Origin: an uncultured Bacteroidales bacterium
Lineage (GTDB): Bacteria; Bacteroidota; Bacteroidia; Bacteroidales; UBA12077
Direction: 5' to 3'
DNA length: 59,487 bases
Assembly: GCA_964587535.1 (NCBI GenBank)
Contig: CAZPMA010000003.1
Coordinates: 1 to 59,487 of the forward strand
Of this stretch, positions 55,226-59,487 are shown piece after piece. A model generated the notes under the pieces. That model saw only the letters and a program-made list of their open reading frames with translations, was not told the DNA's origin and made no database searches. Each line of letters opens with the position of its first letter. The stretch's first letter is position 1. The position numbers were made by a program, and so were the translations under genes.

Positions 55226-58200
55226 ATGAATTTCATTATAAAAAGAAAAACACTTATTGCAATGCTCTTTACAGGGCTTACAATGCTTGGATATATTTCA
55301 TATAAACAATTGGCAGTTGAGCTCTATCCTAATGCGACACTACCAATGCTTTATGTAAGTGTTGGGACTCCATTGGAAGTTGATCCAAAATACATGGAAA
55401 ACCAAGCTATTATTCCATTAGAAGGTGCAATAGGAACATTAGAAAACATTGAAGAAATAAATTCTACAGCAGGACAACAATCTGGCAGTGTAGCAATATC
55501 TTACGAAAAAGGAACTGATTTAAAATATGCTTATTTAAAGCTCATTGAAAAAATTGAGGAAACAAAAGGATCTATCCCTGAAGAATTTCAAGTACAAGCT
55601 TTCAAATTCGATTTGGAACAAATGAATAATATGTTCATGAGCATTGATGTTCGAGGAAGTGGTGGTGTTGATAGGGTAAGACATATTACGGATCAGGAGA
55701 TCATCAATAAAATAAAAAATATTGATGGTATTGCAAATGCAGAAGTCTTTGGTGGCCGAGAGAGATCTATTGAAATAGTTCTTCACCAGGATATATGCGA
55801 TAGCTATGGTATAACACCTGCCGACGTACGAACAGCTTTAAGTAATAACAGTAAATCAAGAACTTTTGTAGGTAAAGTAAGTAATCAAAACCAGCTACAT
55901 TTTGTAAATGTTCTATCAGAATTTGATGATATACAAGATATACACAACCTGGTTGTTAAAGAGCAAGGTAAAATAAAGTTAAAAGATATTGCTGAAATTA
56001 ATTACGGTGTAAAAGAGCAAGAATCGTATAGCCGAGTAAATGGTAAAGAAGCTGTTACCATAAGTTTAACTAAAGATTCGCAGGCTAACATCATAGCATT
56101 GGCAAATAATGTAAAGAGCCTGTTAAAAAATCTAAATAAAGAACTTTCGGCTAAAGATATTGAGTTAGTGATTCAAAGTAATAATGCTGAAACAATGGAG
56201 AATAATATCGATTCCATAATTCATTTAGCACTTATTGGCGGAATACTGGCTATTTTTATCCTATGGATATTCCTAAAAAACTTCAGATTGGTAATAGCAA
56301 TTGCATTGGCGATACCAATATCTGTTTATACGGCATTTAATTTCTTTTATGCTTTTGGAATAACCATAAATAGTTTAACACTTTTGGGAATGGCTCTGGC
56401 CATTGGAATGCTGCTCGACAATAGTGTGGTAGTACTCGAAAATATTTATCGTTTGGCAGCGAAAAACATAAACCCTGATCAAGCAGTAATACAAGGAACA
56501 AAAGAAGTATGGCGCTCCATATTTGCAGCAACCCTTACCACAGTAACTGTATTTTTACCTTTTGTGTTCTCAACTGATTTCTTTATCAGTTTAATTGGTA
56601 AACATATCGGAGTTTCAATTATTTCCACCTTACTAGTGTCTTTGGTAGTAGCCTTATTGCTTATTCCGATGATTACACATGCTTTTCTTAAGTACAGAAA
56701 AAATGATAAACCAATACAATTTGAAACCATTTCTTTCCACAATAGATTAATACAGATTTATAGAGTAATCCTTAAAACATGTATGCGAAAACCTGGAAAA
56801 ACTATACTTGGAGCATTAATTGTATTTTTCCTCACACTTTTAATCAGTTTAGGAATAAGCTTTATTTCATCAGAAGAAGCAGAAATCAAAGAGATTAAAC
56901 TATACGTAAGCTTACCTAGTGGAACTACCTTAGATGATACGGATATCGTAATTGCAGAAGCTGAAAAAAAACTGGAAGATCTGGAAGAAAAGAAAGATGT
57001 TTTAAGTCAGGTATATGAAGAGGAAGCTGTTATTACAATTACTTTAGTTGATGATTTCAAAGACATACGTAATTATTCGATCCCAAAGATCAAAAATGAA
57101 ATTATGGATCGAATTGAAGATTTAAATCCTGCAGAATTTAGCTGGGATCCACCCGCAAGTGGACGACGTTTTGGCAGCGATAGTTATGCCGACGACGAGT
57201 TTGGTCGAATGCTTGGAATCGGTGCTCAGCGCGAGAAAGTAATTATTAAAGGTCAGGATTTTGATAAAATGCTTAATCAGGCTAATGATGTTAAATATTA
57301 TTTGGGCCAGCTAACTTCTATTGAAAATGTTGACATACGTGTTCCAGATAAAAGACCAGAGCTAATGCTTAATTTAGATAAGCAATTAATGTCATTTTAT
57401 GATATCCCGGTAACTTCAGTGCTTTCTGAGTTAAACTCATTCCAACATGAATTTTCAAGTGGTATAAAATTCAAACAGGGAACAGATGAATACGACATTC
57501 AGATAAAGACACTTACTTATGAAGACCAAAAAGACAGAAATATTACTGATTTAAAAACCCTATCTGTTCGAAGCGGTCAGGGTTCACAATTTGAATTACA
57601 GGAAATAAGTAAATTCAATTTTACTGAAGGTTTATCAACCATTAAAAGAACAAATCAGGAAAAACAATTAGAAGTTGTATATCAGTTTATTGATGAAGTG
57701 CAAAGTGAAAAAGATTTATTAGAATCTGCCCGATTTGAAATTGATGAACTTATAAGCAATATGAGTTTACCTTCGGGTATTGCTCTTGAAGTTGTTCATG
57801 AAGAAGATAACTTGGGTGAATTTGGTTTTTTGCTGTTAATGGCATTTATCCTTATTTATATGATTCTTGCTTCGGTTTTTGAATCATTCTCAACTCCAAT
57901 AGTTATGATGTTTTCAATTCCAATGGCTGCCATAGGCTCCCTGGTATTATTAATACTTACAGGAACATCGTTAATGAATACAAATGTATTAACCGGATTG
58001 CTTATTCTACTTGGAATTGTGGTAAATAATGGAATTATTTTAATTGACTACTCCAGAGTTTTACGACGACGTGGGTATTCAGAATCAAGGGCATTAATGA
58101 TGGCTGGTTTAGCACGTGTAAGACCCATATTAATAACAGCCATTACAACAATAATTGCCCTTATTCCGCTTGCATTAGGAAAAGCCGAATATGTGCAACT

Positions 58201-59487
58201 AATTGGTGTTCCTTTTGCAATTACAATTATCGGCGGATTAACATTAAGTACAATTTTAACTTTAGTATTTATTCCCACCTTAAATTCAGGTCTGCAATCA
58301 TCGTTAAACTGGATTTATCAACAAAAAACCTACATTAAAATAGTTCAGATCGCAATTTGGGCTATTGGTAGTTACTTTATATTTACTGAGATTGACAGAA
58401 GAGTATGGCAGATTATTGTTTTCATATTATTGATTATTGCTGTTCCGGCAAGCATATATTTTATCCAGAACAGTTTGCGAAAAGCCAGTGAGAAACTAAT
58501 CGACGAGAAAGATGCCTTGAATATAAAAATCAGAAACCTTGTAAAGATTTATGATTGGGATAATCGCTTTATGCGTGAATGGAAATCAGGAATAAATATT
58601 CGTAAACGTTTAGGAATTGAACACGAATATAAATCTGCAAAAGATTTTGACCAGTTAATATGGCAAATACCCCTAATTGGCTTCTTTCTATTCTTTATAT
58701 ATTTTCATTTAGAAAGTGGATTATGGTATTTTATATTACCTATATTCTTATATATCATAACATTATATGTTTTAGATCCAATAAAAAAATATGTTTCAAA
58801 CTTAAAATATGCAGGCAAACATAAACTTGTAAGATTTCTATTGAGCGTAATTCAAAAATCATTTTTCTGGGGTTTCCCTGCACTTACTTTATTCTTATTT
58901 TATAAAAAGTATACACTTCTTGGACTAATAATTCCAATGGGTGTAATATGGTATTTCCTTATTTTAATAAAAGTTACATCGGATAATTTATACAAGAAAC
59001 AAGTTGATATTAACAGATTAAAGGGTAAATTTAAAAGCATCCGAAAAGGCTTTTATAAATTAGTTAAGGTTATTCCAATTATTGGTAAAAAGAAAGTTCC
59101 TTTTAAAGCACTTAAAGGTGTTTCGATTAAAATAGAAAATGGGATGTTTGGATTACTTGGACCAAATGGTGCTGGCAAATCAACATTAATGCGTATCATT
59201 TGCGGAATCCTTGAACCTAGCTATGGTCAGATAACAATTAATGGCATTGATGTTCGAGAAAAAAGAGAAGAGCTACAAGGTTTAATTGGTTACCTTCCAC
59301 AGGAATTTGGTATGTACGAAAACATGACTGCCTGGGATTTCTTACATTACATGGGTATACTCAAGAAAATCTATAACCAGGAAGAAAGAACTAAACGAGT
59401 AGAATATGTTCTTAATGCAGTTCATATGTTTGATAGTAAAGATGAAAAAATTGGTTCTTTCTCAGGCGGCATGAAACAACGTATCGG
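55226..59487 (+). CDS. RND permease fused to an ABC ATPase, 3'-truncated by window edge (not in ORF track)
   Basis: MNFIIKRKTLIAMLF..., GMLLDNSVVVLEN, LASVFES, RVRPIL; manually read stop-free from 58202 into GPNGAGKS (59159) and FSGGMKQR in the same frame as the start. Confidence 0.88.
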   Translation, partial: MNFIIKRKTLIAMLFTGLTMLGYISYKQLAVELYPNATLPMLYVSVGTPLEVDPKYMENQAIIPLEGAIGTLENIEEINSTAGQQSGSVAISYEKGTDLKYAYLKLIEKIEETKGSIPEEFQVQAFKFDLEQMNNMFMSIDVRGSGGVDRVRHITDQEIINKIKNIDGIANAEVFGGRERSIEIVLHQDICDSYGITPADVRTALSNNSKSRTFVGKVSNQNQLHFVNVLSEFDDIQDIHNLVVKEQGKIKLKDIAEINYGVKEQESYSRVNGKEAVTISLTKDSQANIIALANNVKSLLKNLNKELSAKDIELVIQSNNAETMENNIDSIIHLALIGGILAIFILWIFLKNFRLVIAIALAIPISVYTAFNFFYAFGITINSLTLLGMALAIGMLLDNSVVVLENIYRLAAKNINPDQAVIQGTKEVWRSIFAATLTTVTVFLPFVFSTDFFISLIGKHIGVSIISTLLVSLVVALLLIPMITHAFLKYRKNDKPIQFETISFHNRLIQIYRVILKTCMRKPGKTILGALIVFFLTLLISLGISFISSEEAEIKEIKLYVSLPSGTTLDDTDIVIAEAEKKLEDLEEKKDVLSQVYEEEAVITITLVDDFKDIRNYSIPKIKNEIMDRIEDLNPAEFSWDPPASGRRFGSDSYADDEFGRMLGIGAQREKVIIKGQDFDKMLNQANDVKYYLGQLTSIENVDIRVPDKRPELMLNLDKQLMSFYDIPVTSVLSELNSFQHEFSSGIKFKQGTDEYDIQIKTLTYEDQKDRNITDLKTLSVRSGQGSQFELQEISKFNFTEGLSTIKRTNQEKQLEVVYQFIDEVQSEKDLLESARFEIDELISNMSLPSGIALEVVHEEDNLGEFGFLLLMAFILIYMILASVFESFSTPIVMMFSIPMAAIGSLVLLILTGTSLMNTNVLTGLLILLGIVVNNGIILIDYSRVLRRRGYSESRALMMAGLARVRPILITAITTIIALIPLALGKAEYVQLIGVPFAITIIGGLTLSTILTLVFIPTLNSGLQSSLNWIYQQKTYIKIVQIAIWAIGSYFIFTEIDRRVWQIIVFILLIIAVPASIYFIQNSLRKASEKLIDEKDALNIKIRNLVKIYDWDNRFMREWKSGINIRKRLGIEHEYKSAKDFDQLIWQIPLIGFFLFFIYFHLESGLWYFILPIFLYIITLYVLDPIKKYVSNLKYAGKHKLVRFLLSVIQKSFFWGFPALTLFLFYKKYTLLGLIIPMGVIWYFLILIKVTSDNLYKKQVDINRLKGKFKSIRKGFYKLVKVIPIIGKKKVPFKALKGVSIKIENGMFGLLGPNGAGKSTLMRIICGILEPSYGQITINGIDVREKREELQGLIGYLPQEFGMYENMTAWDFLHYMGILKKIYNQEERTKRVEYVLNAVHMFDSKDEKIGSFSGGMKQRI

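What the first reader, a model, noticed from the sequence alone, without database searches (positions are those of the whole stretch)
55226..59487. RND permease fused in frame to an ABC ATPase
Seen: one reading frame of more than 1400 codons, open to the window edge, carrying a complete RND permease, extra hydrophobic segments, then Walker A GPNGAGKS and signature FSGGMKQR. I read 58202 to the Walker A codon by codon without a stop. The track lists no terminated + ORF here, consistent with the frame being open throughout. Established: RND pumps are proton-motive-force driven and do not normally carry nucleotide-binding domains. Inference: this subunit couples ATP binding or hydrolysis to an RND/TolC machine, or physically links the RND pump to the ABC-2 permease of the same operon.
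Basis: partly seen in the sequence, partly recalled or inferred. Interest (0 to 1): 0.8.

Follow-up and report, generated by a model that had tools for sequence, protein, structure and literature searches.

The report
RND efflux permease fused to ABC ATPase
The window really does encode one long protein joining a proton-driven RND efflux permease to an intact ATP-driven ABC ATPase; the fusion is conserved with its seven-gene pump operon in hundreds of Bacteroidota-type species and has not been studied.

Summary
Window 55226-59487 (+) is one open frame of 1420 codons. It holds a full RND permease (Pfam ACR_tran, aa 2-1019), six extra membrane helices, and an ABC ATPase domain cut by the window edge.

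It is not an assembly artefact. In 67 related genomes with enough sequence, including cultured Marinifilum, Labilibaculum, Ancylomarina and Perlabentimonas, the frame runs unbroken for 1544-1591 codons. One genome has a single-base frameshift.

The ATPase part missing from the window is canonical in all 67: Walker B with the catalytic Glu, D-loop and H-loop. The ATPase domain is the most conserved region of the protein.

Two new points:
- The ATPase domain is split. Its first strand, which carries the A-loop tyrosine, lies about 210 residues before Walker A, with four membrane helices inserted between.
- The fusion always sits in a fixed cluster: ABC ATPase, 1118-aa ABC-2 permease, OMF, MFP, RND1, RND2-ATPase, then a small 6-TM ABC-2 membrane protein just past the window end.

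The most likely mechanism is inferred, not shown: an ATP-driven ABC-2 exporter tethered to a two-paralog RND pump, passing substrate on for expulsion. Direct ATP control of the RND protomer is not excluded. Database entries exist under generic names, and I found no paper.

The parts
44551..45441 (+). Free ABC-2-type ATPase (296 aa), first gene of the conserved cluster and a paralog of the fused ATPase
   Evidence: Pfam ABC_tran E 1e-31. NCBIfam DrrA and GldA types, below cut-off. 42% identity over its full length to the fused NBD once the TM insertion is removed. Directly upstream of the 1118-aa permease in every metagenome locus that reaches that far.
45441..48797 (+). Giant ABC-2 permease (1118 aa): about 7-8 TM helices in the first 280 aa, then an ~840-aa non-membrane region ending in a Golvesin_C domain
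   Evidence: Pfam Golvesin_C E 9e-10, ABC2_membrane_2 E 8e-4. Hydropathy. No NCBIfam or PDB sequence match. Syntenic in all loci.
48831..50348 (+). Outer-membrane factor (TolC-like, 505 aa)
   Evidence: Pfam OEP E 6e-46, two stretches. Syntenic.
50483..51532 (+). Periplasmic adaptor / membrane fusion protein (349 aa)
   Evidence: NCBIfam TIGR01730 RND_mfp 183.5 bits, above the cut-off of 94.9. Pfam HlyD_D23.
51644..54724 (+). RND1 permease (1026 aa), paralog of the RND part of the fusion (28% identity)
   Evidence: Pfam ACR_tran E 2.5e-216. Identity. Found directly upstream of the fusion in 64 of 67 loci by the ORF script, and labelled RND1 in all 67 by BLAST. Relay positions D407, N408, N940, D941, R971, T978 in AcrB numbering.
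54796..55173 (+). PDDEXK_3 small gene (125 aa) lying between RND1 and RND2. Not part of the core system; absent from most related loci.
   Evidence: Pfam PDDEXK_3 E 5.8e-41. Present at this junction in about 7 of 67 loci. GC 25% against 30.5% for the window.
55226..58282 (+). RND2 permease domain of the fusion (aa 1-1019; 12 TM helices plus two periplasmic loops)
   Evidence: Pfam ACR_tran aa 2-1019, profile 3-1016 of 1021, one stretch. Relay positions D407, N408, N940, N941, R971, T978, invariant in 67 of 67.
58325..58465 (+). Two extra TM helices (TM13-14, aa ~1034-1080) after the RND domain. They return the chain to the cytoplasm.
   Evidence: Hydropathy. AlphaFold2 helices 52-72 and 76-105 of P0001, which is window numbering minus 983.
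58520..58552 (+). Displaced first beta-strand and A-loop tyrosine of the ATPase domain (NIKIRNLVKIY, aa 1099-1109)
   Evidence: Matches the N-terminus MKIQIENLDKIY of the free paralog. A PSSM built from the free-paralog N-termini has its best hit in the whole protein here in 67 of 67 fusions. It is the only strand predicted outside the NBD. K and Y are invariant or nearly so.
58655..58969 (+). Four-TM insertion (TM15-18, aa ~1144-1248) inside the ATPase domain, between strand 1 and the rest of the domain
   Evidence: Hydropathy. AF2 helices 164-178, 182-212, 217-246 and 249-275 of P0001. Homologs of the whole 271-aa linker (aa 1025-1295, which contains this insert) are found only in about 1550-1585-aa fusion proteins or in fragments.
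59111..59487 (+). Main body of the ABC ATPase domain (aa 1296-1420): Walker A, Q-loop and signature. Truncated by the window end, with about 150 aa missing.
   Evidence: Pfam ABC_tran. Motif coordinates. In full-length homologs the missing part reads ILVVDEPTAGLDP ... FSTHIIED plus a C-terminal domain of about 90 aa.

Best explanation
The gene encodes the second RND permease (RND2) of a tripartite efflux pump that has two RND paralogs. RND2 is covalently joined through six extra TM helices to a catalytically competent ABC-2-type (DrrA/GldA/ABCA-like) ATPase domain.

The chain runs as follows: RND (12 TM), two TM helices, ATPase strand 1 with the A-loop Tyr, a four-TM insertion, the rest of the ATPase, and a C-terminal domain. 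Every added TM block has an even number of helices, so the ATPase stays in the cytoplasm.

Inferred mechanism: the tethered ATPase dimerises, either with a second RND2 copy in an RND1(1):RND2(2) heterotrimer of the MdtB2C type, or with the free paralogous ATPase of the operon. It drives the 6-TM ABC-2 membrane protein encoded immediately downstream, and possibly the 1118-aa ABC-2 permease. This ATP-driven module moves or flips substrate from the cytoplasm or inner leaflet to the periplasmic face. The attached proton-driven RND/MFP/OMF pump then captures the substrate and expels it across the outer membrane.

Shown here: the fusion, its conservation, the intact ATPase motifs, the split ATPase domain, and the fixed seven-gene cluster. 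Inferred: the partners, the stoichiometry, the hand-off and the substrate.
For: - The frame is open in the window and the domains are as stated.
- There are 67 continuous frames of 1544-1591 aa from different species, isolates included. 248 species-level relatives were detected.
- All ATPase motifs are canonical and nearly invariant. The NBD has 80% mean pairwise identity, against 67% for the RND domains and 43% for the TM insert, which indicates selection on ATPase function.
- The NBD belongs to the ABC-2 class, whose partners are 6-TM ABC-2 proteins: GldA and DrrA profiles; ABCA NBDs and TM_1403.
- A 232-255-aa (one called at 286 aa), 6-TM protein follows the fusion in 62 of 67 loci, with a gap of 200 nt or less in 53 of the 62. 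One member has a weak ABC2_membrane_3 hit.
- The whole cluster (ATPase, 1118-aa permease, OMF, MFP, RND1, RND2-NBD) is recovered from an independent anchor, the permease C-terminus, down to about 29% identity. All 22 loci that reach the tail are open through it.
- The NBD is split: paralog alignment, PSSM best hit at the same site in 67 of 67, and an AF2 strand at P0001 117-126 (pLDDT 83).
- Precedents from the literature: MdtB2C heterotrimers with a division of labour between subunits, and the potentiation of trans-envelope efflux by transporters that pump drugs across the inner membrane (PMC4338810, abstract, text; PMC8277102).
Against: - There is no experimental or structural evidence for any partner or for substrate hand-off.
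- RND trimers and ABC dimers have mismatched symmetry. The 2:1 heterotrimer and the NBD heterodimer are conjectures to resolve that.
- The small downstream protein has only a weak Pfam ABC-2 hit in one member and none in another, and no NCBIfam hit. Its profile match to the permease TMD is weak (hhalign probability 10%).
- The four-TM insertion in the NBD has no known role in ordinary ABC-2 exporters. It might instead couple the ATPase to the RND membrane domain.
- I could not inspect the model's coordinates, so the pairing of strand 1 with the NBD sheet is inferred from the DSSP strand assignment only.
Confidence: 0.5

Rival explanations
1. ATP-controlled RND protomer. The ATPase acts directly on RND2. 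Nucleotide-dependent movements of the NBD are passed through the TM helices inserted at strand 1 and the A-loop, and through TM13-14, into the RND2 membrane domain. They would drive or gate its transport cycle, replacing or supplementing proton coupling.
For: - The link is covalent and the linker is strictly conserved. The linker occurs in no other protein context.
- The insertion sits exactly at the A-loop strand, which senses bound nucleotide.
- RND2 has N at the TM10 position 941 in 67 of 67, where RND1 has D in 54 of 64. Both paralogs lack AcrB D408 and K940. RND2 therefore carries one fewer relay carboxylate.
- Precedent for one RND paralog supplying energy and the other binding substrate: MdtB2C (PMC4338810).
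Against: - RND2 keeps D407, R971 and T978 invariant, consistent with retained proton coupling.
- In 10 of 64 loci RND1 also has N at position 941, so that carboxylate is not essential to the system.
- An ABC NBD needs a dimer partner, and it normally acts through a TMD coupling helix. A dedicated ABC-2 TMD gene is conserved next door.
- No ATP-driven RND has been described in the literature I could search.
Confidence: 0.17
2. Co-assembly fusion without mechanistic coupling. The fusion only guarantees co-expression, co-localisation or fixed stoichiometry of two independent transporters (an ABC-2 exporter and an RND pump) that act on related substrates.
For: - Gene fusions of functionally linked operon neighbours are common.
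- In one genome a 1-nt frameshift separates RND2+2TM (1099 aa) from strand1-4TM-NBD (478 aa) exactly at the domain boundary. This would be tolerated if the halves work independently, provided it is not a sequencing error.
- Both halves retain all the features of autonomous transporters.
Against: - The fusion is retained in 67 of 68 genomes across deep divergence. Linker identity falls to 20-30% while the architecture stays fixed.
- No stand-alone version of the linker+NBD was found among 1.84 billion representatives, other than fragments.
- The conserved cytoplasmic loop residues and the split NBD suggest more than a passive tether.
Confidence: 0.3
3. Artefact. The long frame results from mis-assembly or a sequencing error that joined two adjacent genes.
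For: Only one observation points this way: one related genome (OY760934; L001 and L082) has the two parts in different frames.
Against: - 67 independent assemblies, including isolate genomes and RefSeq proteins WP_120240926.1, WP_101261531.1 and WP_166363393.1, show the same continuous frame.
- 22 of 22 additional metagenome loci are open through the junction.
- The exception is a single-base shift in an A-rich stretch.
Confidence: 0.01

Closest known systems
MdtABC / MuxABC-type tripartite RND pumps with two different RND permeases (MdtB2C heterotrimer)
   Same: Two paralogous RND permease genes in tandem share one adaptor and one outer-membrane factor. Precedent exists for functional asymmetry between the paralogs (PMC4338810). 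NCBIfam MdtB and MdtC profiles are among the better matches.
   Different: Scores are far below the MdtB and MdtC cut-offs (about 365-411 bits against 1584-1774). RND1 and RND2 share only 28% identity, whereas MdtB and MdtC share about 50%. The relay here is D-N/N-(D or N)/R instead of DD/K/R. No Mdt-type pump carries TM extensions or an ATPase.
ABC-2 (type V) exporters with separate NBD and 6-TM TMD: DrrAB, GldAFG, NosFY, YbhFSR, and ABCA-family NBDs
   Same: The fused NBD scores best against GldA and DrrA profiles and against ABCA3, ABCA7, ABCA4, ABCA1 and TM_1403 among solved structures. It has the C-terminal extension typical of this class. It is followed by a 6-TM membrane protein gene.
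   Different: Scores are below the equivalog cut-offs (GldA 178 against 402.6; DrrA 169 against 312). The NBD is interrupted by a ~180-aa four-TM insertion after strand 1 and is fused to the C-terminus of an RND permease. I know of neither feature in these families.
MacAB-TolC (ABC-driven tripartite efflux pump)
   Same: An ATPase, an adaptor and a TolC-like duct work in one envelope-spanning system. The NBD is fused to a membrane permease (PMC8277102).
   Different: MacB has an N-terminal NBD, four TM helices and the MacB_PCD/FtsX fold, with no RND domain. Here the permease is a full AcrB-type RND and the NBD is of the ABC-2 class. Genuine MacB_PCD/FtsX genes lie elsewhere in the window.
ArsAB (a secondary carrier that becomes ATP-driven when bound by an ATPase). 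From my own knowledge, not tested here.
   Same: A conceptual analogue for the rival reading: a carrier able to use membrane potential is coupled to an ATPase subunit.
   Different: Unrelated folds. ArsA is not an ABC ATPase and ArsB is not an RND. The subunits are not fused and there is no tripartite assembly.

Membership tests
RND permease (Pfam ACR_tran / AcrB-type) | Full-length match to the 12-TM, two-periplasmic-loop AcrB profile | tested here: met
   ACR_tran aa 2-1019, profile 3-1016 of 1021, 539 bits against a cut-off of 28.
RND permease (Pfam ACR_tran / AcrB-type) | HAE-1 proton relay D407, D408 (TM4), K940 (TM10), R971, T978 (TM11), AcrB numbering | tested here: not met
   Only D407, R971 and T978 are kept. 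Position 408 is N and 940 is N in 67 of 67 fusions and in RND1. Position 941 is N in RND2 and D in 54 of 64 RND1. This is a divergent relay, so it is not a typical HAE-1 member. Proton coupling itself cannot be tested here.
NCBIfam multidrug RND subfamilies (RND_permease_1/2, MdtB, MdtC, CusA/CzcA) | Score above the curated cut-off | tested here: not met
   The best is RND_permease_2 at 459 bits (fusion) and 594 bits (RND1), against a cut-off of 1250. MdtC, MdtB and CusA are all below cut-off.
ABC ATPase (ABC_tran) | Walker A, Q-loop and ABC signature | tested here: met
   GPNGAGKS, LPQEF and FSGGMKQR are in the window. ABC_tran scores 81 bits against a cut-off of 25.
ABC ATPase (ABC_tran) | Walker B with catalytic Glu, D-loop and H-loop His | tested here: inconclusive
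   These lie beyond the window edge, so they cannot be read in this sequence. In all 67 full-length homologs (up to 81% identical in the tail region) and in 15 distant cluster representatives they read (I/L)(L/V/I)VVDEP-TAGLDP and STH.
ABC ATPase (ABC_tran) | Contiguous NBD fold with strand 1 and the A-loop aromatic about 25-35 residues before Walker A | tested here: not met
   The strand-1/A-loop segment (NIKIRNLVKIY) lies 208-216 residues before Walker A, with four TM helices in between. The element is present but displaced.
ABC ATPase (ABC_tran) | ATP binding and hydrolysis | not testable with these tools
   Needs a biochemical assay.
ABC-2 type exporter (DrrAB / GldAFG class) | NBD of the DrrA/GldA class, above the family cut-off | tested here: not met
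   These are the best NBD profiles but fall below cut-off: GldA 178 against 402.6, DrrA 169 against 312. The NBD is class-like, not an equivalog.
ABC-2 type exporter (DrrAB / GldAFG class) | Adjacent 6-TM ABC-2 membrane subunit | tested here: inconclusive
   A 232-255-aa (one called at 286 aa), 6-TM protein lies downstream in 62 of 67 loci. ABC2_membrane_3 hits only one member, at E 2e-5, below the gathering score. The hhalign match to the permease TMD has 10% probability. In this window the gene lies beyond the edge.
Tripartite RND efflux system | Adaptor (MFP) and outer-membrane factor encoded with the permease | tested here: met
   RND_mfp scores 183.5 bits, above the cut-off of 94.9. OEP E 6e-46. 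Both are syntenic in all loci.
MdtB2C-type heterotrimer | Physical 2:1 hetero-oligomer of the two RND paralogs | not testable with these tools
   Only the invariable tandem arrangement is shown.

The most novel reading that the evidence does not exclude
The fused ATPase directly powers or gates the RND2 protomer. Its four-helix membrane insertion at the nucleotide-sensing A-loop strand would pass ATP-dependent motion into the RND membrane domain. The result would be a tripartite pump energised by both ATP and the proton-motive force, and the first ATP-coupled RND transporter.
Probability: 0.17. Interest if true: 0.95.

Novelty: new variant of a known kind. Interest (0 to 1): 0.72.

Why it matters
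RND pumps are treated as strictly proton-driven and ABC pumps as strictly ATP-driven. Cooperation between inner-membrane transporters and RND pumps is known only as a loose, kinetic relationship between separate proteins.

Here the two are welded into one polypeptide. The arrangement is conserved in at least 248 species-level genomes of Bacteroidota and a few neighbouring phyla, inside an invariant seven-gene cluster.

This gives a natural system for testing whether substrate is handed directly from a primary to a secondary transporter. It also allows a test of how a dimeric ABC engine is reconciled with a trimeric RND, and of whether an RND cycle can be controlled by ATP.

The split ATPase domain, with a four-helix membrane insertion after strand 1, is an unusual ABC variant in its own right. 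Cultured carriers exist (Marinifilum, Labilibaculum, Ancylomarina, Perlabentimonas), so the questions can be tested directly.

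Tried and rejected
1. Assembly artefact or frameshift: rejected by the homolog survey.
2. Degenerate ATPase: rejected, because all motifs are canonical.
3. The six extra helices as an ordinary TMD-NBD half-transporter: rejected, because NBD strand 1 sits between helices 2 and 3 of the block.
4. A chimera test: I deleted the insertion and scanned NCBIfam to see whether the GldA and DrrA profiles would extend over strand 1. The result was inconclusive, because the profile alignments still began at position 15 or 6, with or without the real strand.
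5. The protein word-index search listed only fragments of 701 aa or less. That looked like evidence for split genes, but it reflects short contigs and candidate selection. Full-length proteins were recovered from genome loci and cluster look-ups.
6. Paralogy between the small downstream membrane protein and the TMD of the 1118-aa permease: only a weak, collinear hhalign match (probability 10%), so it is not claimed.
7. Identifying the large non-membrane region of the 1118-aa permease: no PDB or NCBIfam match, and only Golvesin_C at its end.
8. Literature: five searches for RND-ABC fusions, hybrid transporters or ATP-driven RND found nothing relevant. The large tripartite-pump review does not mention such a fusion in the 300,000 characters held.
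9. I did not use a second structure prediction. Model coordinates and contacts cannot be inspected with these tools, so it would not have discriminated between the hypotheses.

Full report
**1. Observation**

Translating window 55226-59487 on the + strand gives 1420 codons without a stop, and the frame runs off the window. The ORF list has no terminated + ORF in that range.

Pfam finds a single end-to-end AcrB-type match: ACR_tran at aa 2-1019, profile 3-1016 of 1021, E 2.6e-161. It also finds the first 117 of 137 positions of ABC_tran at aa 1296-1420. Between the two domains lie six hydrophobic helices.

**2. Not an artefact**

A scan of one genome per species, using the linker plus ATPase part as query, found 248 relatives. 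The best 80 loci were fetched. The 67 loci that passed my filter (a frame of at least 1500 codons, closed at both ends inside the locus, without N) all carry one frame running from the RND start through the ATPase to a stop. After trimming to the first Met, the products are 1544-1591 aa. The other retrieved loci are cut by a contig end or an N gap.

The 67 include isolate genomes of Marinifilum (flexuosum, breve, fragile, caeruleilacunae), Labilibaculum (filiforme, manganireducens, euxinus), Ancylomarina euxinus and Perlabentimonas gracilis.

The exception is one long-read MAG (OY760934; L001 and L082), where a single-base shift in an A-rich stretch separates a 1099-aa RND2+2TM product from a 478-aa product. 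The break is just before ATPase strand 1.

An independent scan of metagenome contigs, anchored on a different gene (the C-terminus of the 1118-aa permease), gave 22 loci that reach into the tail. All 22 are open through the junction.

Full-length proteins are in RefSeq: WP_120240926.1, WP_101261531.1 and WP_166363393.1. They are named 'efflux RND transporter permease subunit' or 'ABC transporter ATP-binding protein'. IMG calls them 'AcrB / ABC-type multidrug transport system ATPase subunit'.

**3. The ATPase is intact**

The window lacks the last ~150 residues. In all 67 full-length homologs the missing part reads ILVVDEPTAGLDP (Walker B, catalytic Glu, D-loop) and FSTHIIED (H-loop). A C-terminal domain of about 90 aa follows. 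The same motifs are invariant in the 90-sequence alignment and in 15 distant full-length cluster representatives.

The ATPase is the most conserved part of the protein. Mean pairwise identity is 80% there, 67% for either RND domain and 43% for the TM insertion.

Its class is ABC-2. The best NCBIfam profiles are GldA and DrrA, both below their cut-offs. The best solved relatives by sequence are the ABCA3, ABCA7, ABCA4 and ABCA1 NBDs and Thermotoga TM_1403. TM_1403 is also the best fold match of the AlphaFold2 model.

**4. A split ATPase domain (new)**

The free ATPase at 44551-45441 is a paralog. After the inserted segment is removed, the fused domain aligns with it end to end at 42% identity. 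The alignment includes the N-terminal strand: MKIQIENLDKIY against IHIKIRNLVKIY.

In the fusion that strand lies at aa 1099-1109, 208-216 residues before Walker A instead of the usual ~33. A PSSM built from the N-termini of the free-paralog family has its best hit in the entire ~1570-aa protein at this aligned site in 67 of 67 fusions. Scores are 9.6-24.7 bits, against a shuffled mean of about 0 and a shuffled maximum of 18.5.

The AlphaFold2 model of the tail (P0001, 586 aa, 90-sequence alignment, mean pLDDT 83) predicts a 10-residue strand exactly there. It is the only strand outside the NBD, so it has to pair with the NBD sheet. That last step is an inference, because I could not inspect the coordinates.

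The terminal Tyr corresponds to the A-loop aromatic that stacks on adenine in ABC ATPases (established knowledge). That would explain why the strand is retained. A profile test on an artificial deletion construct was inconclusive.

The topology is self-consistent. The RND ends in the cytoplasm. Two helices go out and back, giving a cytoplasmic strand 1. Four helices go out and back again, giving a cytoplasmic NBD.

Searching 1.84 billion representatives with the linker alone gave 96 hits. Every full-length hit is a 1550-1585-aa fusion with the linker at about aa 1030-1300. The rest are shorter, evidently truncated proteins; no clearly complete stand-alone linker+NBD was seen.

**5. Context (new)**

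The fusion is the sixth gene of an invariant cluster:
- a free ABC-2 ATPase (296 aa);
- a giant ABC-2 permease (1118 aa, Golvesin_C at its end);
- an outer-membrane factor;
- an adaptor (MFP);
- RND1;
- RND2-ATPase;
- a small 6-TM membrane protein of 232-255 aa (one called at 286 aa).

The last gene lies beyond the window edge. It is present in 62 of 67 loci, and four of the five exceptions have 1 kb or less of downstream sequence.

RND1 and RND2 are old paralogs with 28% identity.

The two RND paralogs were aligned to E. coli AcrB (L085). Both keep D407, R971 and T978, and both have N at positions 408 and 940. At position 941, RND1 has D in 54 of 64 loci and RND2 has N in 67 of 67. Both therefore have a non-HAE-1 relay, and RND2 has one carboxylate fewer. 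In 10 loci RND1 lacks that carboxylate too, so the difference is suggestive only.

**6. Mechanism**

The following points are shown:
- a conserved covalent union of a complete RND permease and a complete, strongly constrained ABC-2 ATPase;
- an ABC-2-type membrane partner gene next door;
- a second ABC-2 pair at the head of the operon;
- a single adaptor and a single duct.

The most likely reading is inference, at about 0.5. The ATPase, dimerised either with a second RND2 copy or with the free paralog, drives the ABC-2 membrane subunit or subunits. These move substrate to the periplasmic side, where the attached RND/MFP/OMF pump expels it.

A 1:2 RND1:RND2 heterotrimer would supply two NBDs. 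MdtB2C is a precedent for that stoichiometry and for a division of labour between RND paralogs (PMC4338810; PMC8277102).

Rivals:
- Direct ATP drive or gating of RND2 through the inserted helices (about 0.17).
- A passive co-assembly fusion (about 0.3).
- An artefact (about 0.01).

**7. Comparison with known systems, and novelty**

The parts are known kinds: a tripartite RND pump with two permease paralogs, and an ABC-2 exporter. None of them reaches the curated cut-off of a named subfamily, except the adaptor.

I found no description of an RND-ABC fusion or of an NBD with a TM insertion. This covers five literature searches and the main review of tripartite pumps. The library is not exhaustive, so absence of a paper is not proven.

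I rate the finding a new variant of a known kind. It is already present in sequence databases under generic names, but it is uncharacterised.

Noticed in passing
window 54796-55173 (+): A 125-aa PDDEXK_3 (PD-(D/E)XK nuclease superfamily) gene sits between RND1 and RND2. Its GC is 25%, against 30.5% for the window. Most related loci have 0-180 nt at this junction. A homolog occupies the same junction in about 7 of 67 loci, and the OMF/MFP junction as well in 3. This suggests repeated insertion of a small mobile or selfish gene into the operon's intergenic gaps.
   Followed up: partly
L001 9960-10020 (same genome as L082; OY760934): A single-base frameshift in an A-rich stretch splits the fusion into RND2+2TM (1099 aa) and strand1-4TM-NBD (478 aa), exactly at the domain boundary. 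It could be a long-read error or a natural split. It is the only case among 68 genomes.
   Followed up: partly
window 31668-34082, 34242-36620, 39805-42189 (all -): Three paralogous ~800-aa MacB_PCD/FtsX permeases flank a sigma-54 response regulator (36825-38192) and a histidine kinase (38146-39537). This is a second, MacB-like transporter neighbourhood just upstream of the RND/ABC cluster.
   Followed up: no
window 45441-48797 (+): The 1118-aa ABC-2 permease has about 7-8 TM helices in its first 280 aa, then an ~840-aa region with no recognisable family except a C-terminal Golvesin_C domain. It has no PDB or NCBIfam match. It co-occurs strictly with the RND-ATPase fusion in every locus examined.
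   Followed up: partly
window 42834-44354 (+): A 506-aa protein with a weak Peptidase_M3 / M32-like match lies directly upstream of the cluster. A homolog was seen in the same place in one close relative (L088) but was not detected in more distant loci.
   Followed up: no
L002 9901-10000; L003 and L004 position 1: In one relative, three independent assemblies break at the same point inside RND2 (an N gap in the MAG, and contig starts in two metagenomes). Many database entries for this family are fragments called 'partial'. This makes the family look like ordinary ABC ATPases or RND fragments in protein searches.
   Followed up: no
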